From the IMG/VR virus record IMGVR_UViG_3300038492_000581, positions 25,815 to 89,814 of that record: DNA of 64,000 nucleotides; one strand, given 5' to 3'. Source of the DNA: a virus (Duplodnaviria; Heunggongvirae; Uroviricota; Caudoviricetes). Position 1 is the stretch's first letter; the number at the start of each line of letters is the position of its first letter. The notes under the pieces were generated by a model that saw nothing but the letters and a program-made list of their open reading frames with translations, did not search any database and had not been told where the DNA came from. A program made the translations under genes and the position numbers. This document shows positions 10,704 through 43,509 of the stretch, one piece after another.

Positions 10704-12086
10704 TCAATCATCGTTATTCGTTGCTAAAATCTCGGAAACCTGCAAAGAGTTAAGACGATCGGCCTTTGCGTACTTGGAGGCCATCATTTGCATTTTAGAG
10801 TCAGTGCAGTCAGGATAGCTGCCATGCATGAGAACTCGTGCAATATCCGTGATGACAAAGCCACGAACTTGATCGGCAACATGCTTGGTCTTAGGGTGAT
10901 CCTTGAGAACTTTCCATAGAGGACCAACCTGAGAGATGTCTTCGGAAGTTGCCTGATTTAGAGTATCGCCAGTGATACGGGTGATTTCCAAATCATCAAG
11001 ATGTTGGCAAACGTTGGCAATTTCTCTTTGAAGAAAATCAACCTTCTGTCGGGCCGACAGGGCCGAAGCAAAGCCACAGTGAAGTTTGCCCTCGGGGGTG
11101 TTGATGCCTTCGACGAGCATTCCGGATAGCTGACGCCAAGCTTTATTACAGATGTCAATGAACTCGGGCCCAGCCTCTGAATGATGGGTCTGAATATTGT
11201 AGCGAACCGCATACTCTCCGGCAAGCTGAAGAGGATTAGGATATCCCATTACTCGGAAATATGCACAAAGCCCCACAATAGCGATCGGAAGTTGTGCTGC
11301 AAAAGTACGAGGAGAAGTCCAAGCAGCGAGATTCTCTCTAAGCTCCGTGCTTCCCATCACCTTGTCTTTGATGTGAGGGATAAAAGCACTAACGAATGTA
11401 GACATCTGCTCGAATAAATCATCATCTTCAATGAGAATTTCGTACTCTTGTCGAGTTTTTACAATCACTTCGTCAAGCTCGGTCGCAATAGACTGAAGAT
11501 TTCGGCCAGAACTTCTTCGGTTAAGTGCGATCATACTACGAACATCGCTGGGTTCTACAGTCTCATAATTTTCGCATGGTAACCAAAAAAGAAAACGATC
11601 CTTGAGGGCCGCATCCAGCTTACGAGAATTCTTGTACGTGGCTGGATTGCCTGTGGCAATAGCAAGAGTGTAGTCGCATGGAATACCCTGAAATGAACGC
11701 TCTTCGAGAACTTCCATCCAATAGTTCATGCGTTCTGTGTTGGCACGGGCCAGCTCGTCAATAACGACAATATTGGCACCAAAGATCGATCGGTCCGTTT
11801 TGATAAACTCAAACTTGCCGGTCTTTTCGGCACCCGCCATGTTTGGGAATCCACCAATATCAATTAGGCCCGCTTTATCTGCTGAATAGTAGCGGAATCC
11901 GCGACCAGTCTCATCAATAGTGCGACCAAGAACCTTGCCCAGCGTGGTCTTGCCAACACCGTGAAGAGCTTCGAGATAAATATTGTGCCGAAGTGCCGCG
12001 GCAACAACAACGCACGGCTCGATCTTGTGATATCCTCCTACAATTTTTTCGAGGATACTTTGACTCTTAGGAATGGTGAAGCTCAT
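10704..12086 (-). CDS. MoxR-like AAA+ ATPase (CobS-like)
   Basis: Walker A ALHGVGKTTL, Walker B VVIDELARAN, sensor ATGNP and LDAALKDRF. Confidence 0.65.
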   Translation of the reverse strand: MSFTIPKSQSILEKIVGGYHKIEPCVVVAAALRHNIYLEALHGVGKTTLGKVLGRTIDETGRGFRYYSADKAGLIDIGGFPNMAGAEKTGKFEFIKTDRSIFGANIVVIDELARANTERMNYWMEVLEERSFQGIPCDYTLAIATGNPATYKNSRKLDAALKDRFLFWLPCENYETVEPSDVRSMIALNRRSSGRNLQSIATELDEVIVKTRQEYEILIEDDDLFEQMSTFVSAFIPHIKDKVMGSTELRENLAAWTSPRTFAAQLPIAIVGLCAYFRVMGYPNPLQLAGEYAVRYNIQTHHSEAGPEFIDICNKAWRQLSGMLVEGINTPEGKLHCGFASALSARQKVDFLQREIANVCQHLDDLEITRITGDTLNQATSEDISQVGPLWKVLKDHPKTKHVADQVRGFVITDIARVLMHGSYPDCTDSKMQMMASKYAKADRLNSLQVSEILATNNDD

Positions 12087-14639: not shown

Positions 14640-14730
14640 TGAGTGGAGCCGGCGAGAATTGAACTCGCGTGCTGCTGTCCGTCGCCTCGATAGGATTTTA
14701 CACGCTTAGTTTCTTGCGAAACATTGGGGG
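14640..14730 (-). tRNA. possible tRNA-like element. Only the T-arm was recognised.
   Basis: Minus-strand GCGAGTTCAATTCTCGC T-arm followed by CGGCTCCA. I could not pair a 5' acceptor strand. Confidence 0.2.
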
Positions 14731-15012
14731 ACGTATTTGGTACGTCGCCTTCCACCACTCTGTTTTGTGAAAACAGAGAAAACGTTTTGCCGATGTATTA
14801 TAGTCGTCCCAATCTATCGGCATCAATTGGTTTGACTTGCTGCTACGCAGCCATCTTTGTAGTGCCAGTTAGGCTTGAGCATTCTGTTAAGGTCGGACGC
14901 ACAACAACCCTGCGTGACTATCTCAGTTCGTGAACCCAGTCGATACCTTTCGGCCCCGGGTACCATTAATAGTACACTTAATGGTGTCTAAAGTCAACTG
15001 ATTTTTGATGAT

Positions 15013-22586: not shown

Positions 22587-22669
22587 TAGGCGGCTTGGGA
22601 TTTGAACCCAACTGGACCAGACTACGGAATTATAATCCACTGCTTATAAGACAGTTCCGATACCCGCCC
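22587..22669 (-). tRNA. tRNA, long (83 nt) and atypical. Anticodon loop TTATAAT or CTTATAA; isotype unresolved.
   Basis: Acceptor GGGCGGG/GCCGCCT and T-arm TTGGGTTCAAATCCCAA are clean. The D and anticodon region contains two AT-rich palindromic hairpins that I cannot fit to a standard cloverleaf. Confidence 0.4.
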
Positions 22670-24588: not shown

Positions 24589-25757
24589 TCATCTCCATAA
24601 AGATTGTGTGTACGAATATAGTCTACCACAGGTGTAGGCAAATTCGAAAGATTTTTTCGAGATTCTGTGCTTGAGACTTGTTCAAACTTCGGGTTTTCAT
24701 GCGTCACAATATTGAGCGAATTAGAACGCGGTGGCCGATCTAAATCCTTGCTGTTCCGCATGAAAACATGAAGTGCCGATGTCTTCAAAGGGTCAAGATA
24801 ATCTTCTGTGGGGCAGTATTTGTCTGCTACTACTGCATTGTAGGTATCAAGACCCATCACGTAGTTCCGGACTTCGGGGCATCCAAAACTCGTTAGCATT
24901 TCGTCAAATTCAACAAATTTACCATAACCAAAAGTTACAAGAACTGGGTACCCCAAAGAATTGATCATAGAGATTCGATGAGATATATCCTTCAGATCCG
25001 TTGGCATCATCTTTCGGACATTGGTCAAACTGATTTCGAATATTGGATCTTCAGGAGACTTGAGTGCCATGTAATCGTGTGCATCTGTAACTGGCCTAAA
25101 AGATCCTCGAAACCAGTTAACGTTTTGACGAATGTGCGAGACTGCTCTTCTCGGAACTCCATCTGTACCGAAAAACAGAGGGTTGTTCTTGTTGCAAAAC
25201 TCTAACAGGTGTTCTTGTGCGAATCCTCTGCTTTTAATCACATCAATGTTTACCGGCAAGCCTTGAATATAGTCTAAGGTTTCATTCCACTTTGTTCCCC
25301 GGTAAAGAAGGACGTTTGACATGAACCATAGAATTGTATCTAAGGTTGTCATGATTGCGGTTTCGCGGGTCATTCCCTTGCGAAGACGAAAATGCATTAG
25401 TGAACGAGAGCCTTCATCGTAATACAGAGATACCCAAGCATGACTTTCTCCTTGTTCATCCTCTTTTTTGAAGGCTCCGGTAATACAAAGCGAAAAAGGT
25501 GTTTTGCCAAGCTTTTCAATTTCGTTACGATTTTCGGAATGATCTTCCCAAGCGATTCGTGCCGCCATTTCTTCTGAAACAGATGTAGTTCCTATACAGG
25601 TTGGCTGAGTGTTCTTGTGATACCTGCACGTGCTCTTGTACAGAACCTTAGAGGCACCATCATGACTGGTGAGCCATGCAGTAAGAGGCACGCCAAGGCC
25701 AGCTTCGTTGATACAGCCCATGTATCCCGAGTTTTTTAGATCTTCGAAGATTTGCAT
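24585..25757 (-). CDS. hypothetical protein in the NAD-salvage neighbourhood
   Basis: 390 aa, translationally coupled to the NAMPT gene. No PRPP-synthetase or NMNAT motif seen. Confidence 0.45.
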   Translation of the reverse strand: MQIFEDLKNSGYMGCINEAGLGVPLTAWLTSHDGASKVLYKSTCRYHKNTQPTCIGTTSVSEEMAARIAWEDHSENRNEIEKLGKTPFSLCITGAFKKEDEQGESHAWVSLYYDEGSRSLMHFRLRKGMTRETAIMTTLDTILWFMSNVLLYRGTKWNETLDYIQGLPVNIDVIKSRGFAQEHLLEFCNKNNPLFFGTDGVPRRAVSHIRQNVNWFRGSFRPVTDAHDYMALKSPEDPIFEISLTNVRKMMPTDLKDISHRISMINSLGYPVLVTFGYGKFVEFDEMLTSFGCPEVRNYVMGLDTYNAVVADKYCPTEDYLDPLKTSALHVFMRNSKDLDRPPRSNSLNIVTHENPKFEQVSSTESRKNLSNLPTPVVDYIRTHNLYGDE

Positions 25758-27379
25758 TACCAGTCTCCGTCGAGCATGTCAGCCTGAAGATTAAGGACCT
25801 CATCTCTCTGGTCTCGAATCTTCTTACTTAAAACTTCTTTTGGTTGCTCTCTATCGCGAAAGTTATTGAGAATTCTTTGTCGGGCGACAAGATTTGTTTC
25901 AAGACAAGGATCGAGAATCACCTCGTCCATATCTTGTCCAGAAATTCCATCATACCAAGGCTTCAAAAGAAATCTTGATTCTGAGATGTTATTTGTAATT
26001 GCGACGGGCCAAACAGTTTCATCGTTTTCATTCGCGTTTTCGATTACTTGAACTTCCCCAGGAATACTTGTCTTGGCAAGAGTTTCAGAACGCTTACATG
26101 TTCCGCGACCTTCAGTACCGACTTCTGCTAATTTGTAGGACAAACCAATATGATCACGTTTGATACTATTACGAAGATGTCCGCCAACACCAAACGCTCC
26201 GCTTGCAAATGGACTCCATCCGCGACGAATACAGTAGTTGATGATATTAATCATGGTTTCCCAGTCCATGCCATCACCCTCGATCCAACGAAGACGAGTG
26301 GCACACTTGAAACCATCACTTTCTTCAAAAAGATTATTGGATTCGCAAACATCAAGAACATGTTTTATGCACGTCAGTGGATCACCAGAATCGGGGCGTG
26401 CAACGATAACATTAGAGTCTTCAGACCATTCATTCGCAAGACGATCTCCAAGTTTGCTAACCATCTTGAAAAAATCATTGGTGTCTGAAACGTGGGCAGT
26501 GATTCCTGTTGTTTTTCCCAATTCGTACAACGCGGAATGACATTTCGGCTCACTTTGGAAGCCAGTTACCGTGCGGTGAGCAAGGGCGTGAATCGAACAG
26601 CCGAAAGAGGTTTGCGTATCTTTCCAGTCAAGATATGAACCAGCAACAGTGTCGGTTCCTGGAAAGACCATATTATGGGCCATACCAAGAACCTCAGACT
26701 CCATTTCGCACGCTCCAGCTCTATCGCCAAAGTCATGGCACATAATACTGATTGCAAATTGTACGTTCTCCTCAGGCCACGAAGGATGGATCTCTCGGCA
26801 GCGACGTGCAAGGTAATCACGCCACCACATGGCAGCGGTCACGCGTTCCATGGGAGCCCAGATTTGGACGAACTTGCTCTCAAACCAGCCCGCCAGCTCG
26901 CCAAACCCGTCTTGAGCTGAAACCTGCATAACAGGCTCATACGGAAACACTACGCTTCCGTCCAAAAAAGCTTCGATACGAATGGGAATAATTCCATCGC
27001 ACTCTTCGACAACTCTGACCCACATATCTCGATCAAATTGATATGGAGTGCCGCCAGCATGAAATGTGGCGAGAAATCTGTCGGCTTCTTCAATTTCGTA
27101 CATTGTAATCGGTTGAGTTAAAAGGTCACGAATGATTCTTCGTAATCCGAAGAAAACAATCCGATCATCCAAAGCCACGCCTTTTGGCATGATTTTTGAC
27201 AAACCTCGTCGAGGCACCATGTGATAGATGGAGCGTTCTTTTGCGTCTTGTGACGCGTGCGGGCCTGTGCCGATTGTATAGGCGTCTGCTCGCAGCAGGC
27301 GGGGCACCACAGGAGTACCTTCGACAAATTCCGACACTGACATCTTTTCACGCATTTCGCAACTCCTCATATTCGACAA
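25757..27379 (-). CDS. nadV: nicotinamide phosphoribosyltransferase (NAMPT/NadV)
   Basis: RADAYTIG, IRIEAFLDGSV, GWFESKFVQIWAP, CHDFGDRAG...GTDTVAG, ARPDSGDPL and IEGDGM align with human and bacterial NAMPT blocks. Confidence 0.8.
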   Translation of the reverse strand: MSNMRSCEMREKMSVSEFVEGTPVVPRLLRADAYTIGTGPHASQDAKERSIYHMVPRRGLSKIMPKGVALDDRIVFFGLRRIIRDLLTQPITMYEIEEADRFLATFHAGGTPYQFDRDMWVRVVEECDGIIPIRIEAFLDGSVVFPYEPVMQVSAQDGFGELAGWFESKFVQIWAPMERVTAAMWWRDYLARRCREIHPSWPEENVQFAISIMCHDFGDRAGACEMESEVLGMAHNMVFPGTDTVAGSYLDWKDTQTSFGCSIHALAHRTVTGFQSEPKCHSALYELGKTTGITAHVSDTNDFFKMVSKLGDRLANEWSEDSNVIVARPDSGDPLTCIKHVLDVCESNNLFEESDGFKCATRLRWIEGDGMDWETMINIINYCIRRGWSPFASGAFGVGGHLRNSIKRDHIGLSYKLAEVGTEGRGTCKRSETLAKTSIPGEVQVIENANENDETVWPVAITNNISESRFLLKPWYDGISGQDMDEVILDPCLETNLVARQRILNNFRDREQPKEVLSKKIRDQRDEVLNLQADMLDGDW

Positions 27380-28291: not shown

Positions 28292-28369
28292 TGGGGACGG
28301 TGGGGCTCGAACCCACATTTACATCCTATTACCACTGTACGGTTTAGAAGACCGCCGGGATACGTCCCC
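28292..28369 (-). tRNA. atypical tRNA-like, anticodon loop CTTCTAA (Arg TCT). No recognisable D-arm.
   Basis: Perfect acceptor GGGGACG/CGTCCCC, T-arm GTGGGTTCGAGCCCCAC and anticodon arm GCGGT-CTTCTAA-ACCGT. Only 5 nt separate TA(8-9) from the anticodon stem. A 22-nt insert (ACAGTGGTAATAGGATGTAAAT) lies between the anticodon and T arms. Confidence 0.4.
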
Positions 28370-28712: not shown

Positions 28713-29885
28713 TTAAGGCAGATCCTTAGTATCCCTGAAAACAACTCCAACAGGAAACCTTGGAATTTGATCGTCTGTACGATCAAAGAATCTGATGGTG
28801 AGCGGTTTTCCAATATACTCATCTCTGTCGAGATAAAACTGCCTTCGCTCTTCCATTGTGGCCTTCATGCTGCATTCAAAGGTGCCGTCAGTTACGTCGT
28901 TGCGGCAAACCCAAACGACGCAACCCTCCATCTTTCCTCGGCCCCCTCGGGCAGCGACAACAGTGAATTCGGCGTCTTGAAATTTCTTGACTTTTAAAAG
29001 ATGTGCCGATCGATAGCCCCAAAGATATGTACCACTATTTCCACGAAGCATAGATCCTTCGTATCCATCAGTCATGTGTTGGCCGTATACATCCCACATG
29101 TCGGCTTCGCTGTTGACGTACTCTCCATACACCTTAGTGATATTATCACTTCGCTTGACTACCGCGATTAGATTTGCAAGCCTGTCCCTCCAAGGCAGAC
29201 TATCGTCCCCTCTGTGTGTGGGCACATCATAGACATGATATACAAGATTGAGGCTTTCAGGCTTATAGGATTTGCTTTCCGGATTAGCAGACTTTACCCA
29301 GGATGTAACGCGTTGACACGATTGACCATGAATGTATATTTCGCCATCAAGGATAGTTCCTTCGGGCAACCATTTAGCAAGTTGTTCTTGGATAACTGGA
29401 ACAAAGTATGGCTTGCCCTGTCGCGACGTCAGGCGGATTTCGCCGCCAACATTCTCGGCCAAACATCGTACGCCATCAAGTTTGGGCTGAAGATATCCGG
29501 GCCATTCGAACTTCTTGCCTTTGGTGGTAATCTTACCACTCGTGTTGGAATAAGAATGGGCCGTCATAGGAAGAGGTAACTGCTCTTGTGCCCCTTCTGG
29601 AGTCTCAGAGTACTTACGTTCTAATTTGAACTTATGAAGTGATTCGGCCTCTGAAGCGGCCTGTTCTTCGCCGGTGGTTTCGTTGGATCTTCCTACATTT
29701 TTGGGCACTGCGGTTTTTTGGGAAACTTGAAGTTTGCCACCAACAATACCGTATTCAGTGAAGATTTGATCTCCTTTACTCCAAACACGCCATTGACGCA
29801 ACTCGCCGGACTTACCTTTGTGATAAAGCGTTGGAAAATTCATGAGCGTTTCTTTTTGAGCCAAGACTTTATAAGACGATACCAA
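28713..29885 (-). CDS. ATP-dependent DNA ligase
   Basis: Motif I QPKLDGVR (KxDGxR) with the adenylation and OB domains. About 390 aa, similar in size to the T7 and Chlorella-virus ligases. Confidence 0.8.
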   Translation of the reverse strand: MVSSYKVLAQKETLMNFPTLYHKGKSGELRQWRVWSKGDQIFTEYGIVGGKLQVSQKTAVPKNVGRSNETTGEEQAASEAESLHKFKLERKYSETPEGAQEQLPLPMTAHSYSNTSGKITTKGKKFEWPGYLQPKLDGVRCLAENVGGEIRLTSRQGKPYFVPVIQEQLAKWLPEGTILDGEIYIHGQSCQRVTSWVKSANPESKSYKPESLNLVYHVYDVPTHRGDDSLPWRDRLANLIAVVKRSDNITKVYGEYVNSEADMWDVYGQHMTDGYEGSMLRGNSGTYLWGYRSAHLLKVKKFQDAEFTVVAARGGRGKMEGCVVWVCRNDVTDGTFECSMKATMEERRQFYLDRDEYIGKPLTIRFFDRTDDQIPRFPVGVVFRDTKDLP

Positions 29886-30691: not shown

Positions 30692-30777
30692 ATGAAAGAC
30701 TGGGATTCGAACCCAGACTACGGGTTCCACATAGCTGAAACAACATTCCCGCGTGCTTCCAATTACACTACCTTTCA
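30692..30777 (-). tRNA. tRNA-like gene with a 23-nt insertion where the anticodon loop should be
   Basis: Acceptor TGAAAGG/TCTTTCA, D-arm GTGT-AATTGGAA-GCAC and T-arm CTGGGTTCGAATCCCAG are all good. The stem GCGGG/CCCGT closes a 23-nt loop containing an internal hairpin GTTTC...GGAAC. Confidence 0.4.
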
Positions 30778-32434: not shown

Positions 32435-32512
32435 TAGCGGCGGTTGGATTTGAACCAACATGTAACCGGGTTACGCTTTCTACGTCTTATCAGGACGAGG
32501 CGATACACCGCC
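32435..32512 (-). tRNA. atypical tRNA-like, anticodon loop CTGATAA (Ile GAT). No recognisable D-arm.
   Basis: Acceptor GGCGGTG/CGCCGCT, TA(8-9), then after 5 nt the anticodon arm TCGTC-CTGATAA-GACGT, a 23-nt insert with the hairpin GTAAC-CCG-GTTAC, and T-arm GTTGGTTCAAATCCAAC. The architecture matches 28292..28369. Confidence 0.4.
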
Positions 32513-32877: not shown

Positions 32878-33903
32878 TTATTTTTCTCTTTCAAGATATT
32901 CAGGACTTCTTTGCTTGAGTATCAACCTGCCACCAAGTTTTTCTGACCTCTGCTCCCGCATGGGGCGGATCACGATGCCTTCGCGACGTGTATCAAGCAA
33001 CGCAGAGGTGCCGTTTGATGCTTCTTGTATAGTTCTACCACACAGCCAGTCAGCAAGCAAAACATTTTGTCCTAAAATTGGTACCATTGCAATGCCCATC
33101 GAGGTGCACAAATTAACGAACGAATCAACGTCGATCCAATTATAACCCACTTTGATATCGAATACTCTAACATCAAGCTCCGATAGCCTGTAGATGTTCT
33201 TTTGGAATCCAGGACCAATAAACTCTCCGTAAAGTGTCACAGTCTCGCCATAAGATTGTGAGATCCTTTTTGCTTTATGAAGCAGACCTGTTCTCTTGGC
33301 GACCGCCCAGTACGAATGATCTTCCTCACCATCAGGCACGATGGTAAATCTACGTTGACTGACAAAGGCTTCGTCTGTTTCAGGATTGTATGTTACGGAA
33401 AAGTTAGATCCTTCAAGCTTCTCAGTAATAAGCACTCTTTGATTCATCAGTTCTTGTGCGACTTCAGCGTAACGATCAGCACCCTCTATGTCATACATGC
33501 TCAGCCCTTCGGGTAACGCATGAAGACGACCGTTTTTGCAAGGCACCTCGGGCGGCTCGTATTTGGTTACGCCAAAGAACTCTGTCAAGTCGCCTTTGCA
33601 AGCTGCGGCCAACGATGCGGGCCCAACAATACCCTGAGAGATTTCGCCACGCAAACGCACGGTCTTTACTCTATCTTTCTTCTTACCCGAGAGTTTTCCC
33701 GTAAGACCCAGTTGTTCTTGAACACGCTCAGGTAGAATAGAATCGATTGGGAAGTAAACTACCTTGTCGCCGGGAACGTATGATTCACGACCAACAACAA
33801 ACTGAAACGTTGATCCAGCAAGCGTTGCAATATCAAGCCGGTCAGCTTGAGGGTGACGTTTTACTGTATTTATTGTTTCAATGGTTACGCCGAAAAAGCT
33901 CAT
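32878..33903 (-). CDS. RNA ligase-like nucleotidyltransferase with an N-terminal tRNA-binding (Myf/EMAP-like OB) domain
   Basis: N terminus VKRHPQADRLDIATLAGSTFQFVVGRESYVPGDKVVYFP fits the tRNA-binding domain pattern HP.AD.L..........V.G......G..V. The central KxDG-type motif ITEKLEGSNFSV fits ATP-dependent ligase motif I. Confidence 0.5.
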   Translation of the reverse strand: MSFFGVTIETINTVKRHPQADRLDIATLAGSTFQFVVGRESYVPGDKVVYFPIDSILPERVQEQLGLTGKLSGKKKDRVKTVRLRGEISQGIVGPASLAAACKGDLTEFFGVTKYEPPEVPCKNGRLHALPEGLSMYDIEGADRYAEVAQELMNQRVLITEKLEGSNFSVTYNPETDEAFVSQRRFTIVPDGEEDHSYWAVAKRTGLLHKAKRISQSYGETVTLYGEFIGPGFQKNIYRLSELDVRVFDIKVGYNWIDVDSFVNLCTSMGIAMVPILGQNVLLADWLCGRTIQEASNGTSALLDTRREGIVIRPMREQRSEKLGGRLILKQRSPEYLEREK

Positions 33904-40416: not shown

Positions 40417-41574
40417 TTAGGACTTGACGTAGAGCACCTCAGTTCCGGGGAACAGGTGTCGGTTCACGCTGGTGCTCTCAATAAAGATGGTGTAGTCACC
40501 AAAATCGCCGGGACGAATTCGAATATTGCTGCCACCAACAGGAAGATTGAGAATACTTCTGGCATTTGTGCCAGAGTACATCTTGCCGCTAATGTTGTGA
40601 CGGATTACAATCTCTTTACCAGGCTGAAGGGTTTCTGCCTTGGTAAGTTGGTAGAAAGCATTTCCTGTTTCATACTGAGATGAACCAACCCGACGACGAA
40701 TCGTCGCGGAACGAAGCTTTGCGTTGATGAAGTCTCGAATCTCCACCCAGCCCTTCTCATTCACATTTCGACCAGTCACCGCAAAGGTGGCAAACTCTTC
40801 CGAAACGTTGTGCATCTGAGAAAGATCACGAGAAGAAACGTCAACTGCGTCGACAAAGAAAGCGGTCGAGCCTCTGATGCCCTTGGTGCGGCCGTCAAAA
40901 TATCTGGCGGTACTCATCCTAATCTTGTCTGACATCTGTTTGAAACTGGCAACGTCGCCTTCTTGCCAGGCTTCAATGTTCCCTGCGGGAACACCGAGAC
41001 CCGTGAGGTATGCCTTCATGCGAGCGGGTCCCGTAAAAGCAATACTCCACCGTCCAGTTTTTTGAACTTCTTTGATCAAACTTCCAAGACGTCCTTTGTA
41101 TAGGCGAGAATTGTTTTCTTCGCCGTCGGTGATGCAAATTACAACAAAGCTTGTGTCTTTATTATTTGCATCAGGTAGGCTACGAAGATCATTGATTGCA
41201 ACACCAACTCCGTCTTCGAGGGCGGTCATTCCACTTGCTTGATAATCACGACTTGTGATCTTACGAACACGATCAATTGGTCGATTTCTCATGATCTTAC
41301 TCACAAGATCTCCGAAAGTGTAAAAGCTGAAAGTCGTCTTCTGCCCGGTTTGTGCGGCAGCAGCCTTATTGGCTTGAATTTGACTATTCACAGCTTCAAT
41401 AACTTTAGAAACACCAATTTGGTTCATCGACCAGCTTCGGTCGAGAACTATGGCAATATGGTTGGTGAGAACAACTTCTGTCGCTTTGGCGACAGACTTA
41501 CGCTTGCGGGTTTTCTTCTTGGGCTGGGTCTTGTTCGACATGAATCGACCCCGAGAATCTCTCATGATTGGCAT
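40417..41574 (-). CDS. von Willebrand factor A domain protein
   Basis: MIDAS motif IVLDRSWSM ... ICITDGEEN, followed by a C-terminal beta-rich domain. AGGAGG RBS. Confidence 0.6.
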   Translation of the reverse strand: MPIMRDSRGRFMSNKTQPKKKTRKRKSVAKATEVVLTNHIAIVLDRSWSMNQIGVSKVIEAVNSQIQANKAAAAQTGQKTTFSFYTFGDLVSKIMRNRPIDRVRKITSRDYQASGMTALEDGVGVAINDLRSLPDANNKDTSFVVICITDGEENNSRLYKGRLGSLIKEVQKTGRWSIAFTGPARMKAYLTGLGVPAGNIEAWQEGDVASFKQMSDKIRMSTARYFDGRTKGIRGSTAFFVDAVDVSSRDLSQMHNVSEEFATFAVTGRNVNEKGWVEIRDFINAKLRSATIRRRVGSSQYETGNAFYQLTKAETLQPGKEIVIRHNISGKMYSGTNARSILNLPVGGSNIRIRPGDFGDYTIFIESTSVNRHLFPGTEVLYVKS

Positions 41575-41919: not shown

Positions 41920-42103
41920 TGCCGGAGGCAGGATTCGAACCTGCAAGCCGCCAGTCAAACCCCTTTTGTCTTATGGGAAGTGGCCACTTCCCATAAGACT
42001 TCATGATTCTATTCTGTTGCTGCATTTCATGATTGCAGCACGGCACCCGCTTTACGAACGGGCGTGTTTACCAATTTCACCACTCCGAGCTTAATATCGT
42101 ATA
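41920..42103 (-). tRNA. tRNA-like fragments: a 3' T-arm/acceptor element (41920..41950) and a tRNA-Tyr-like 5' half (42040..42103), separated by two strong hairpins including a perfect 26-bp palindrome
   Basis: 3' part GCAGGTTCGAATCCTGC-CTCCGGC-A. 5' part GCTCGGAG-TG-GTG-AAATTGGTAAA-CAC-G-CCCGT-TCGTAAA-GCGGG (anticodon GTA, C33). Between them lie TTATGGGAAGTGGCCACTTCCCATAA and GCTGCAATCATGAAATGCAGC. The acceptor strands pair only 5 of 7. Confidence 0.25.
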
Positions 42104-43439: not shown

Positions 43440-43509
43440 TACCGGAGGGAGGAATCGAACCTCCGATAAAGACTTATGAAATCTTCATATCAACCTTAGA
43501 TGCTCCGGC
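43440..43509 (-). tRNA. tRNA with anticodon CAT (Met, or Ile2 if lysidinylated), short (70 nt) with a reduced D-arm
   Basis: Acceptor GCCGGAG/CTCCGGT, anticodon arm AAGAT-TTCATAA-GTCTT and T-arm GGAGGTTCGATTCCTCC. The 5' end overlaps the 3' end of the HNH ORF by about 25 nt. Confidence 0.4.

What the first reader, a model, noticed from the sequence alone, without database searches (positions are those of the whole stretch)
28292..28369. Two tRNA-like genes with the same non-canonical architecture: no D-arm and a 22 to 23-nt insert between the anticodon and T arms
Loci 28292..28369 (anticodon TCT) and 32435..32512 (anticodon GAT) both have perfect acceptor stems, U8A9, a canonical anticodon stem-loop beginning only 5 nt after position 9, and then a 22 to 23-nt extra segment before a canonical T-arm. 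In the first locus the extra segment contains a D-loop-like AGTGGTAAT. Either these are D-armless or permuted tRNAs, or they are tRNA-derived regulatory RNAs. The recurrence of the same layout argues against random decay.
Basis: seen in the sequence. Interest (0 to 1): 0.6.

Follow-up and report, generated by a model that had tools for sequence, protein, structure and literature searches.

The report
Phage tRNAs with a rewired D-arm
The two odd tRNA-like genes are real members of a widespread family of phage isoleucine and arginine tRNAs, largely missed by annotation, in which half of the D-arm has moved to the other side of the anticodon arm while the base pairs and contacts that build the normal L-shape appear to be kept.

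Summary
Both loci lie on the minus strand and are 78 nt long. Each has an acceptor stem, U8-A9, a 4-nt connector, a normal anticodon arm (UCU, GAU), a 22-nt insert and a normal T-arm. ARAGORN misses both, and Rfam's tRNA model aligns them with the D-arm deleted. They are not D-armless. A covariance model built from relatives finds 104 members in IMG/VR loci, a third member in the window (22587-22669, UAU), and members in cultured Bacteroides, Streptomyces, Agrobacterium, Pseudomonas and E. coli phages, where they are mostly unannotated or mis-annotated. The connector pairs with a triplet in the insert (99.6% paired, about 30 independent compensatory switches). That triplet is followed by U-A-R-N-N-G-G, matching 13-A14-R15-16-17-G18-G19. 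The R15 equivalent covaries with the base before the T stem, as in the Levitt pair 15:48. Arg-type members have A20 and Ile-type members have U20 and A73. The segment 10-21 therefore appears to have been transposed to the variable region. Members sit in tRNA arrays and carry only Ile or Arg anticodons. The most likely reading is functional tRNAs with a new core topology. No prior description was found. Expression, charging and the 3D fold are untested.

The parts
28292..28369 (-). Family member L1: tRNA-Arg(UCU)-type gene, 78 nt, no encoded CCA. It is the most divergent of the well-scoring members: U at position 10 gives a C25.U10 mismatch, position 45 is C, and there are 2 extra nt after A20.
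   Evidence: Rfam tRNA 39.8 bits. Family model R1 75.1 bits; this locus was in the training set. Sequence.
28357..28360 (-). L1 'connector' UCCC, equivalent to the D-stem 3' strand (positions 22-25). It is followed directly by G26 and the anticodon stem.
   Evidence: Alignment to the family. The family D-stem is 99.6% paired. In L1 only 2 of the 3 pairs are Watson-Crick.
28346..28348 (-). L1 anticodon UCU, in the loop CUUCUAA (28344..28350).
28317..28334 (-). L1 transposed D segment: UGG (positions 10-12), U13, A14, A15, U16, A17, G18 G19 (28326..28325), A20 (28324), UGUAAA, U48 (28317).
   Evidence: Model R1 alignment. Family conservation and covariation.
32435..32512 (-). Family member L2: tRNA-Ile(GAU)-type gene, 78 nt, no encoded CCA. 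A typical member.
   Evidence: Rfam tRNA 29.5 bits. R1 83.2 bits. Sequence.
32500..32503 (-). L2 connector UCGC, equivalent to the D-stem 3' strand (22-25). C23-G24-C25 pair with G12-C11-G10.
32489..32491 (-). L2 anticodon GAU, in the loop CUGAUAA (32487..32493).
32460..32481 (-). L2 insert: A44 G45 (32481..32480), linker AAA, GCG (positions 10-12; 32476..32474), U13, A14 A15, CCC, G18 G19 (32467..32466), U20, UACA, U48 (32460).
   Evidence: R1 alignment. Covariation.
22587..22669 (-). Probable third member L3: tRNA-Ile(UAU)-type, 83 nt. The connector is UCGG (22657..22660), whose CGG pairs with CCG (22625..22627). The linker is 9 nt. Deviations: a G7.G66 mismatch and G15.G48. Anticodon at 22646..22648.
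   Evidence: R1 40.9 bits, E 1e-8 in the window; this locus was not in the training set. Rfam does not detect it at E<=1, nor does ARAGORN.

Best explanation
The two loci, and a third at 22587..22669, are genes for elongator tRNAs of a conserved phage family in which the core has been rewired. In a canonical tRNA the order is acceptor 5' strand, U8 N9, [10-13 plus D-loop 14-21], [22-25], 26, anticodon arm, 44-48, T-arm. In this family the order is acceptor 5' strand, U8 A9, [U C N C, equivalent to 22-25], N26, anticodon arm, A44 G45, a 2-3-nt linker, [G N G U, equivalent to 10-13], A14 R15 N N G18 G19 N20, a few more nt, Y48, T-arm. So the D-stem 5' strand and the D-loop have been moved from the 5' side to the 3' side of the anticodon arm. 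What is shown: the D-stem still forms, between strands that now enclose the anticodon arm, and the base taken as R15 covaries with the base taken as Y48. What is inferred: the RNA folds into the usual L-shape. The anticodon-D helix keeps its length (5 bp, then 26/44, then 3-4 layers). U8-A14, R15-Y48 and G18G19-T-loop contacts would be retained, and the new covalent links (9 to 22, 45 to 10, 21 to 48) join residues that are neighbours in the canonical core. Also inferred: host IleRS or ArgRS charges these tRNAs through the usual determinants (anticodon; A73 and U20 for Ile; C35 and A20 for Arg), and they decode AUH (Ile) and AGR/CGN (Arg) codons during infection. Why the rewired form is kept is unknown. 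The narrow isotype range fits a single origin in a tRNA-Ile(UAU), followed by anticodon and identity switching, since UAU and UCU differ by one base.
For: (1) Family. The signature shared by L1 and L2 found 14 IMG/VR loci, all with the full layout. A relaxed pattern gave more than 120 matches. Model R1 found 104 members at 41-97 bits, against 32 bits or less for canonical tRNAs. A mis-registered pattern of similar information content gave 6 hits, none tRNA-like.
(2) D-stem. Columns 12-14 with 47-49 of alignment A3 are 99.6% paired. Pair 24:11 is UA 38, CG 37, GC 7, AU 6, UG 1 with no mismatch. The other two pairs also have compensatory variants (A-U, G-C, U-A). There were about 30 concerted changes on a neighbour-joining tree. 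This pair ranks third among all column pairs by mutual information. RNAalifold predicts the helix on its own, and a structure-blind MAFFT alignment shows it too.
(3) D-loop equivalence. The invariant U-A after the strand, the A-to-GG spacing equal to A14-to-G18, and G18G19 in 87-88 of 89 sequences all fit. R15:Y48 is AU 65, GC 20, other 4. It is the top non-helix pair by mutual information and changed about 21 times in concert.
(4) Identity. All 14 Arg-type members (C35) have A at position 20. Of the 75 Ile-type members, 74 have U20 and all 75 have A73. A20 is the main ArgRS determinant, and A73 and D20 are Ile determinants (PMC9976931).
(5) Context, for 119 members in 109 loci. The median distance to the nearest canonical tRNA is 13 nt. 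849 of 862 neighbouring tRNAs are on the same strand. The CCA habit is concordant in 52 cases and discordant in 7. Only 2 of 37 members duplicate the anticodon of a canonical neighbour. Members fill exact tRNA-sized gaps in arrays.
(6) The window has 24 canonical tRNAs and no tRNA-Ile, although Ile is 6.1% of codons.
(7) Examples that do not depend on my patterns, in cultured phages (tikkala, LilMartin, Atu_ph04, PAK_P2, 121Q), obey the same rules.
(8) Rival pairings show no covariation.
Against: There is no experimental evidence of any kind: transcription, processing, CCA addition, charging and the 3D fold are all untested. The nearest-neighbour energy model does not favour the transposed D-stem. 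It appears in the MFE of 6 of 89 members (median pair probability 0.05), whereas canonical D-stems in the same loci appear in 53% of cases (0.36). Most members were retrieved with patterns that fix U8 A9 U C. C, A44 G45, G. G U A, GG and GUUC, so the invariance of those positions is partly built in; only columns 24:11, 15:48, 20, 73 and the stems are unbiased. The 35/20 coupling rests on only 2-3 evolutionary events. Most Ile-type members have a U27.U43 mismatch, so a sizeable asymmetric internal loop separates the anticodon stem from the D-stem, and coaxial stacking is assumed rather than shown. Window L1 has an imperfect D-stem (C25.U10), and its MFE prefers the alternative pairing AUCC:GGAU. 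L3 has several deviations and could be decaying. The tertiary contacts were inferred from textbook tRNA geometry and were not modelled.
Confidence: 0.8

Rival explanations
1. These are truly D-armless tRNAs, like mitochondrial tRNA-Ser(AGY). A short unpaired connector replaces the D-arm, and the 22-nt segment is simply an enlarged, unstructured or self-folding variable loop.
For: Rfam's tRNA model aligns them this way. Single-sequence MFE folds rarely contain the D-stem. In L2 and many Ile-type members a small hairpin (GUAA...UUAC) can be drawn in the insert.
Against: The connector covaries with a triplet in the insert: 99.6% paired, about 30 concerted changes, four Watson-Crick types and no mismatch at 24:11. 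The insert hairpin shows no covariation: 80% paired, the same as the shuffles, with no double changes, and 38 of 84 sequences break one pair. The insert carries a D-loop-like A-R-N-N-G-G with R15:Y48 covariation. Total length (75-83 nt among the members examined; the window's are 78, 78 and 83) is that of a full tRNA, not a reduced one.
Confidence: 0.06
2. These are tRNA-derived non-translational RNAs that keep a tRNA-like shape but are not used to decode codons. Examples would be decoys for host tRNA-targeting nucleases, regulators, primers or processing punctuation.
For: The topology is non-canonical, and the literature held here records no cytosolic translation system that naturally uses such a tRNA (PMC11551756). 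The window phage encodes an RNA ligase next to L2 and a tmRNA, so conflicts over tRNA damage and repair are plausible. There are no expression or charging data.
Against: Anticodon loops are fully canonical (C32 in 88 and U33 in 88 of 89; A37 in 89 of 89). Isotype-specific determinants outside the anticodon track the anticodon: A20 with Arg, U20 and A73 with Ile. The acceptor/T-arm is 7/5 with G53-C61 and UUCRA. Members follow the genome's CCA habit and almost never duplicate a canonical neighbour's anticodon (2 of 37). In the window they are the only Ile decoders in a nearly complete tRNA set.
Confidence: 0.1
3. These are decaying tRNA pseudogenes, or the apparent family is an artefact of the search patterns and of model-fitted alignment.
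For: Patterns fixed many positions. The A3 alignment was fitted to the model. L3, and L005 15024-15100, show degenerate features (C33, no GG, mismatches).
Against: Stems are 94% paired across 89 distinct sequences from many habitats and phage groups, with compensatory changes in 20 of 21 pairs. The covarying columns were not fixed by any pattern. The MAFFT alignment gives the same result. Members found only by the model or by BLAST, including six GenBank phages, obey the same rules. The mis-registered control pattern found nothing tRNA-like.
Confidence: 0.03

Closest known systems
Canonical bacterial and phage elongator tRNA (Rfam RF00005), specifically tRNA-Ile and tRNA-Arg
   Same: 7-bp acceptor stem, 5-bp T stem with a UUCRA T-loop and G53-C61, 5-bp anticodon stem with a 7-nt loop (Y32 U33 NNN A37), U8, A14, R15:Y48, G18G19, G10 paired with C25, A44 G45, A73 (Ile), A20 (Arg), overall length about 77 nt, and location in tRNA arrays.
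   Different: The strands of the D-arm are in a different order. The 22-25 strand follows position 9 directly, and the 10-13 strand plus D-loop lie between position 45 and position 48. There is therefore no D hairpin, the D-stem encloses the anticodon arm, and the secondary structure is a three-way junction with a bulged long arm rather than a four-way cloverleaf.
Mitochondrial D-armless tRNAs (metazoan mt-tRNA-Ser(AGY), nematode mt-tRNAs)
   Same: There is no hairpin between the acceptor and anticodon stems, only a short connector of 4-5 nt after position 9.
   Different: The mitochondrial tRNAs lack the D-stem, the D-loop and the GG/T-loop contacts. They are short (about 54-65 nt), are described as flexible or Y-shaped, are restricted to mitochondria, and rely on co-evolved factors (PMC7609411, PMC11551756). 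The phage family keeps the D-stem, the D-loop motifs and full length.
Type II tRNAs (Leu, Ser, bacterial Tyr, Sec) and allo-tRNAs with a long variable arm
   Same: Extra nucleotides between the anticodon arm and the T-arm.
   Different: Type II variable arms form their own hairpin and coexist with a normal D-arm. Allo-tRNAs differ in the acceptor/T split (8/4, 9/3; PMC5389517). Here the extra segment shows no covariation for a hairpin of its own and instead supplies one D-stem strand and the D-loop.
Circularly permuted and split tRNA genes (Cyanidioschyzon merolae, some archaea). This comparison rests on my own knowledge and was not checked here.
   Same: The order of tRNA segments in the gene is rearranged.
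   Different: In those cases the gene is permuted at the termini and processing restores a canonical mature tRNA. Here the termini are normal and no processing step that would restore canonical order is evident, so the mature RNA itself is predicted to be rearranged.
Viral tRNA-like structures (for example plant-virus TLS) and mascRNA
   Same: An L-shaped tRNA mimic reached through non-canonical connectivity.
   Different: Those are parts of larger RNAs or are non-decoding RNAs with unusual acceptor or anticodon regions. The phage family has complete, canonical acceptor, anticodon and T arms and stand-alone genes in tRNA arrays.

Membership tests
tRNA (Rfam RF00005; functional elongator tRNA) | Score at or above the family's gathering threshold (29 bits) | tested here: inconclusive
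   L1 scores 39.8 bits and L2 29.5 bits, which is borderline and seen only with permissive filters. L3 is not detected at E<=1. Of 10 other members, 5 were detected at 31-35 bits and 5 were missed.
tRNA (Rfam RF00005; functional elongator tRNA) | 7-bp acceptor stem, 5-bp T stem with a T-psi-C-type loop, and a 5-bp anticodon stem with a 7-nt loop, U33 and a purine at 37 | tested here: met
   Across 89 distinct members the acceptor is 97.8% paired and the T stem 98.2% paired; the anticodon stem is 82% paired overall because 27:43 is a U.U mismatch in most Ile-type members (the other four pairs are about 98-100% paired). U33 is present in 88 of 89 and A37 in 89 of 89. The T-loop is U54 U55 C56 R57 A58, with G53-C61 in 89 of 89.
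tRNA (Rfam RF00005; functional elongator tRNA) | D-arm hairpin (stem 10-13:22-25 closing the D-loop) between position 9 and position 26 | tested here: not met
   Only 4 nt lie between A9 and N26. The D-stem does form, but between that connector and a strand 3' of the anticodon arm.
tRNA (Rfam RF00005; functional elongator tRNA) | Conserved core residues for the L-shape: U8, A14, R15:Y48, G18G19 | tested here: met
   U8 is present in 89 of 89, the A14 equivalent in 89 of 89, GG in 87-88 of 89, and R15:Y48 as A-U or G-C in 85 of 89 with about 21 concerted changes. U8, A14 and GG were partly fixed by the search pattern, but they also hold in members found only by the model or by BLAST.
tRNA (Rfam RF00005; functional elongator tRNA) | Aminoacylation and use on the ribosome | not testable with these tools
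   Only indirect evidence: identity determinants (PMC9976931), array context and anticodon complementarity.
Mitochondrial-type D-armless tRNA | Absence of the D-stem and D-loop, with the connector unpaired | tested here: not met
   The connector is paired (99.6%) and covaries, and D-loop motifs are present in the insert.
Type II (long variable arm) tRNA | The variable region forms its own stem-loop, and a normal D-arm is present | tested here: not met
   The candidate hairpin in the insert shows no covariation (80% paired, equal to the shuffles, no double changes), and there is no D hairpin.
Permuted tRNA gene (C. merolae type) | The 3' half precedes the 5' half in the gene, and the termini are joined through a circular intermediate | tested here: not met
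   The acceptor 5' and 3' strands are at the gene ends in normal order, and the discriminator and, in many members, an encoded CCA follow the 3' strand.

The most novel reading that the evidence does not exclude
A natural, widespread class of tRNAs outside mitochondria whose core is wired differently from the universal cloverleaf. The D-stem 5' strand and D-loop are transposed to the variable region, yet the tRNA works with ordinary bacterial synthetases, EF-Tu and ribosomes. It would have arisen once, spread across very different phage groups (Crassvirales, Streptomyces, Agrobacterium, Pseudomonas and E. coli jumbo phages, and large environmental phages), and switched between Ile and Arg identity. 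It may be retained because the altered backbone path escapes a host or phage tRNA-directed nuclease or modification enzyme.
Probability: 0.55. Interest if true: 0.9.

Novelty: new variant of a known kind. Interest (0 to 1): 0.85.

Why it matters
The cloverleaf is treated as universal for cytosolic tRNAs. A 2024 paper states that all known bacterial tRNAs are canonical and that arm-less tRNAs exist only in mitochondria (PMC11551756). A conserved family with the same parts joined in a different order would show three things. First, the L-shaped core can be built with another strand topology. Second, standard bacterial translation factors presumably accept such a tRNA. Third, tRNA finders systematically miss or mislabel a class of phage tRNAs. 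ARAGORN calls overlap only 3 of 119 members, two of them under a wrong identity. Rfam detected 5 of 10 at marginal scores. GenBank records leave the sites blank, call one tRNA-Leu, or cover one with a protein CDS. In practical terms, tRNA complements and codon-usage analyses of many phages, including therapeutic Pakpunavirus-type phages and crAss-like phages, lack their Ile or Arg decoders. The scaffold could also be of use for orthogonal tRNA design. The question can be tested directly, because members occur in cultured phages of E. coli, P. aeruginosa, Streptomyces, Agrobacterium and Bacteroides.

Tried and rejected
- ARAGORN in relaxed, intron and mitochondrial modes gave only mutually inconsistent forced folds.
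- A 5' hairpin between the acceptor 5' strand and the connector is possible in the window's L1 and L2, but it is not conserved: 55% paired, at shuffle level.
- A mini-hairpin inside the insert (GUAA...UUAC) has no covariation. My first test of it was mis-registered by one column and was repeated.
- For L1, the MFE pairing AUCC:GGAU is not conserved in the family. Members with A23 break it while compensating in the D-stem.
- Megablast of the region against GenBank phages found no match. The DNA ligase used as a single query against IMG/VR found no relatives, and the exact L1 T-arm and acceptor string found none either.
- My first Python layout scanner found the layout only in the window and in L001.
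- My first relaxed DNA pattern had one N too many and returned only random sequence, which I then used as a negative control.
- Pattern hits in isolate genomes (Erwinia, Pantoea, Enterobacter) and in CPR bacteria are false positives. The CPR hits are canonical tRNA-Ser.
- Promoter and terminator scans around the loci gave counts equal to the shuffles and were uninformative.
- Synteny with the closest relatives (L002-L007) was uninformative because the order of genes in the tRNA island is not conserved. Those relatives carry canonical tRNA-Ile(GAU).
- Eight literature searches and four papers yielded no prior description. The library does not cover most subscription journals.
Full report
OBSERVATION. 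The window is part of a large phage genome. It carries a tRNA island (24 ARAGORN tRNAs, all on the minus strand, 15.9-45.3 kb), a tmRNA, and NAMPT/NAPRTase, DNA ligase, RNA ligase, MoxR-type ATPase and vWA genes. Its closest protein relatives lie on contigs of about 150-180 kb. Each has a fully paired 7-bp acceptor stem, U8 A9, 4 nt plus one more nt, a canonical anticodon arm (UCU in L1, GAU in L2), 22 nt, a canonical T-arm and A73. Each is 78 nt long, and every element has the same length in both. ARAGORN does not call them, and its permissive modes give only forced, mutually inconsistent folds. Rfam's tRNA model matches both end to end (39.8 and 29.5 bits; gathering score 29). It replaces the 15 D-arm positions with 4 nt and puts a 19-nt insertion in the variable region. 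The two loci share 17 of 26 positions between G7 and A44, which suggests they are paralogs. Both are intergenic.

A FAMILY, NOT A ONE-OFF. A DNA pattern made from the positions shared by L1 and L2 plus a T-loop found 14 IMG/VR contigs from unrelated samples. All 14 have the complete layout, with anticodons UAU, GAU, CAU or UCU. An accidental variant of a later pattern, shifted by one position but of similar information content, returned 6 hits, none of them tRNA-like. I used this as a background control. A covariance model (R1) built from the 16 sequences separates family members (41-97 bits) from canonical tRNAs (32 bits or less) in 1.55 Mb of phage DNA. It also found members that were not in the training set, including a third locus in the window at 22587..22669 (UAU; 40.9 bits) and members with Arg anticodons ACG and CCU. 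R1 aligned 104 members, 89 of them distinct, as alignment A3.

WHAT THE STRUCTURE IS. The 4-nt 'connector' is not unpaired. Its last three bases pair with a triplet inside the insert, and 99.6% of cells are paired. The middle pair is U-A in 38 sequences, C-G in 37, G-C in 7, A-U in 6 and U-G in 1, with no mismatch. The two flanking pairs have rarer compensatory variants (A-U, G-C, U-A). These columns were not fixed by any search pattern. The pair ranks third among all column pairs by APC-corrected mutual information. On a neighbour-joining tree built from the other columns it changed about 30 times, with both sides moving together. RNAalifold predicts the helix without being told about it, and a structure-blind MAFFT alignment of the first 16 sequences shows it as well. 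For the whole structure, 94.3% of cells are paired, compared with 63% in shuffles and 51% or less when partners are slid by 1-3 columns.

The triplet is always followed by U-A-R-N-N-G-G. That is the sequence and spacing of positions 13, A14, R15, 16, 17, G18, G19 in a canonical tRNA. The base at the R15 position covaries with the last base before the T stem as A with U (65 sequences) or G with C (20 sequences), with 4 exceptions. This is the behaviour of the Levitt pair 15:48. It is the strongest non-helix signal in the mutual-information ranking and changed about 21 times in concert. The connector, U-C-N-C, is followed directly by N26 and the anticodon stem, just as positions 22-25 are in a canonical tRNA. 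A44 and G45 follow the anticodon stem as usual.

The simplest reading is that the segment 10-21 (D-stem 5' strand plus D-loop) has been transposed from between positions 9 and 22 to between positions 45 and 48. The D-stem then forms between non-adjacent strands and encloses the anticodon arm. The anticodon-D helix keeps its canonical number of layers: 5 bp, then the 26/44 layer, then 3 Watson-Crick pairs and a U13.U22 layer. From textbook tRNA geometry (inference, not modelled here), the three new covalent joins connect residues that are neighbours in the canonical core. Residue 8 pairs with 14 next to the 13-22 layer, which bears on the 9-to-22 join. Residue 45 contacts the 10-25 pair, which bears on the 45-to-10 join. 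Residue 21 lies in the 8-14 layer, which stacks on the 15-48 layer, which bears on the 21-to-48 join. An ordinary L-shape is therefore plausible.

Two rival pairings fail. A 5' hairpin between the acceptor strand and the connector is at shuffle level. A small hairpin within the insert is 80% paired, the same as the shuffles, with no compensatory change.

DO THEY ACT AS tRNAs? This cannot be tested directly here, but the indirect evidence is consistent.
- Identity: all 14 Arg-type members (C35) have A at the position-20 equivalent. Of the 75 Ile-type members, 74 have U there and all 75 have A73. A20 is the main determinant for bacterial ArgRS, together with C35 and position 36. A73, the anticodon and D-loop positions including D20 are Ile determinants (PMC9976931). 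On the tree this coupling amounts to only 2-3 events, so it is supportive but not strong statistically.
- Context: for 119 members in 109 loci, the median distance to the nearest canonical tRNA is 13 nt and 849 of 862 neighbouring tRNAs are on the same strand. Members have or lack an encoded CCA in line with their genome's habit (52 concordant, 7 discordant). Among the 37 members with at least 8 canonical neighbours, only 2 share an anticodon with a canonical tRNA.
- Arrays: in dense arrays the members occupy exact tRNA-sized gaps. Examples are the gap between tRNA-Trp and tRNA-Met in Kehishuvirus 'tikkala', and the position abutting tRNA-Ile(GAU) in two Actinomycetota MAG arrays.
- The window: the 24 canonical tRNAs cover 18 amino acids and include no tRNA-Ile, although Ile is 6.1% of codons. 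AUA is 11% of Ile codons and AGA 22% of Arg codons. The three family members supply Ile(GAU), Ile(UAU) and Arg(UCU).
- Isotypes: a structure-only scan of 3.0 Mb, with no sequence signature for the D-stem or the anticodon, found 130 instances. After discounting one misparsed canonical tRNA, all carry Ile-box anticodons (UAU 101, GAU 13, CAU 1) or Arg anticodons (UCU 6, ACG 4, CCU 3, UCG 1). UAU and UCU differ by one base. This fits a single origin followed by an identity switch.

DISTRIBUTION. Members occur on IMG/VR contigs from a few kb up to 288 kb. In a scan of one genome for each of 185,579 bacterial and archaeal species, about 15 of the 40 pattern hits were true members, and all were on MAG contigs. 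Several of those contigs are phage-sized or carry tRNA arrays. The hits in isolate genomes and in CPR bacteria were false.

In GenBank phages, found by BLAST and so independently of my patterns, members are present in:
- Bacteroides crAss-like phage 'tikkala' (GAU, 74 bits)
- crAss-like phage cr130_1 (UAU, 66 bits)
- Streptomyces phage LilMartin (GAU, 73 bits) and its relatives
- Agrobacterium phage Atu_ph04 (UCU, 72 bits)
- Pseudomonas phage PAK_P2 (UCU, 66 bits) and relatives
- E. coli jumbo phage 121Q (UCU, 59 bits), with BLAST matches at equivalent sites in about 20 related E. coli and Salmonella jumbo phages (only 121Q was tested with the model)

In the records examined the site is blank, except that 121Q calls it tRNA-Leu(taa) and Coruscant places it under a protein CDS. 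ARAGORN misses all of them. Rfam's tRNA model at gathering score caught 5 of 10 tested members, at 31-35 bits.

CAVEATS.
- Nothing here is experimental.
- The nearest-neighbour energy model does not favour the transposed D-stem. It is in the MFE of 6 of 89 members, whereas canonical D-stems from the same loci are in the MFE of 53%. This is expected for a 3-bp helix that closes a multiloop, but it means the case rests on covariation.
- The search patterns fixed many conserved positions, so only the covarying and unconstrained columns count as evidence.
- Most Ile-type members have a U27.U43 mismatch, so the junction between the anticodon stem and the D-stem is a sizeable internal loop.
- Window L1 is atypical. 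U10 gives a C25.U10 mismatch, position 45 is C, and there are two extra bases after A20. Its MFE prefers another pairing.
- L3 has a 9-nt linker, a G7.G66 mismatch and G15.G48, and it may be degenerating.

COMPARISON AND NOVELTY. The family works like a tRNA and keeps every arm and core motif, but it fails one defining feature of the cloverleaf: a D hairpin between positions 9 and 26. It is not a mitochondrial-type D-armless tRNA, because the D-stem and D-loop are present. It is not a type II tRNA, because the insert has no stem of its own. It is not a permuted gene of the C. merolae type, because the termini are normal. Rfam has no separate family overlapping these loci. Eight full-text searches and four papers gave no description of this layout. 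The papers were a 2020 review of non-canonical tRNAs, the allo-tRNA paper, a 2024 paper stating that all known bacterial tRNAs are canonical, and the 2023 identity review. The library does not include most subscription journals, so an earlier report cannot be ruled out. I classify this as a new variant of a known kind, namely tRNA, and rate its interest as high.

Noticed in passing
It has a 9-nt linker, a CGG/CCG D-stem, a G7.G66 mismatch and G15.G48. ARAGORN and Rfam both miss it.
   Followed up: partly
window 14641..14957 (-): A tmRNA gene by Rfam (63.3 bits, full length) in the phage tRNA island. ARAGORN did not report it. Relative L084 also has a tmRNA, at 127 bits.
   Followed up: no
window 41920..42089 (-): A 170-nt match to Rfam tRNA (34.3 bits). 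It is a tRNA-like gene with an insertion of about 100 nt in the variable region that contains a long perfect hairpin (AGUCUUAUGGGAAGUGGCCACUUCCCAUAAGAC). Its identity and processing are unknown.
   Followed up: no
window 43440..43509 (-): A 70-nt tRNA with anticodon CAU, C8 instead of U8 and a shifted 3-bp D-stem. Rfam gives 35.9 bits and ARAGORN misses it. It could be tRNA-Ile2 (lysidine type) or a Met tRNA. It is not a member of the rewired family (R1 23 bits).
   Followed up: partly
window 30692..30777 (-); L002, L004, L005, L006: tRNA-Asn is 86 nt with a long variable arm. The related large phages have tRNA-Asn, Lys, Thr and Cys genes of 86-92 nt. These isotypes are normally type I, so enlarged variable regions appear to be common in this phage group.
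   Followed up: no
L002 6473-6549, L004 3342-3418, L006 5157-5230, L222 3563-3636: CUA-anticodon (amber suppressor) tRNAs in the related large phages and in crAss-like phage cr130_1. ARAGORN labels them 'Pyl'. They hint at stop-codon recoding in those genomes. None was found in the window.
   Followed up: no
window 32878..33903 (-), 28713..29885 (-), 25757..27379 (-), 10704..12086 (-), 40417..41574 (-): An RNA ligase (immediately upstream of L2), an ATP-dependent DNA ligase, a NAMPT/NAPRTase, a MoxR-type AAA+ ATPase and a vWA protein are interspersed with the tRNA genes. The RNA ligase suggests that tRNA damage and repair are relevant to this phage.
   Followed up: no
L263 2995-3076 (E. coli phage 121Q, KM507819.1 73585-73666); Streptomyces phage Coruscant MT711976.1 73031-73099: GenBank mis-annotations at family members. 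121Q labels its Arg(UCU)-type member 'tRNA-Leu(taa)'. In Coruscant the site lies under an 'FtsK-like DNA translocase' CDS.
   Followed up: partly
L089 3809-3880 (-); L253 4506-4582 (+): L089 holds a 72-nt tRNA-like sequence with a GUA anticodon loop, C8 and no evident D-arm (R1 31 bits), which remains unresolved. L253 holds a variant family member (GAU) with an ACC/GGU D-stem and no U13.U22 layer. The layout is therefore more variable than my search patterns allowed.
   Followed up: no
window, whole tRNA island (15.9-45.3 kb): No tRNA-Gln of any kind was detected in the window, although CAA and CAG make up 3.5% of codons. With the family members included, 19 of the 20 amino acids are covered.
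   Followed up: no
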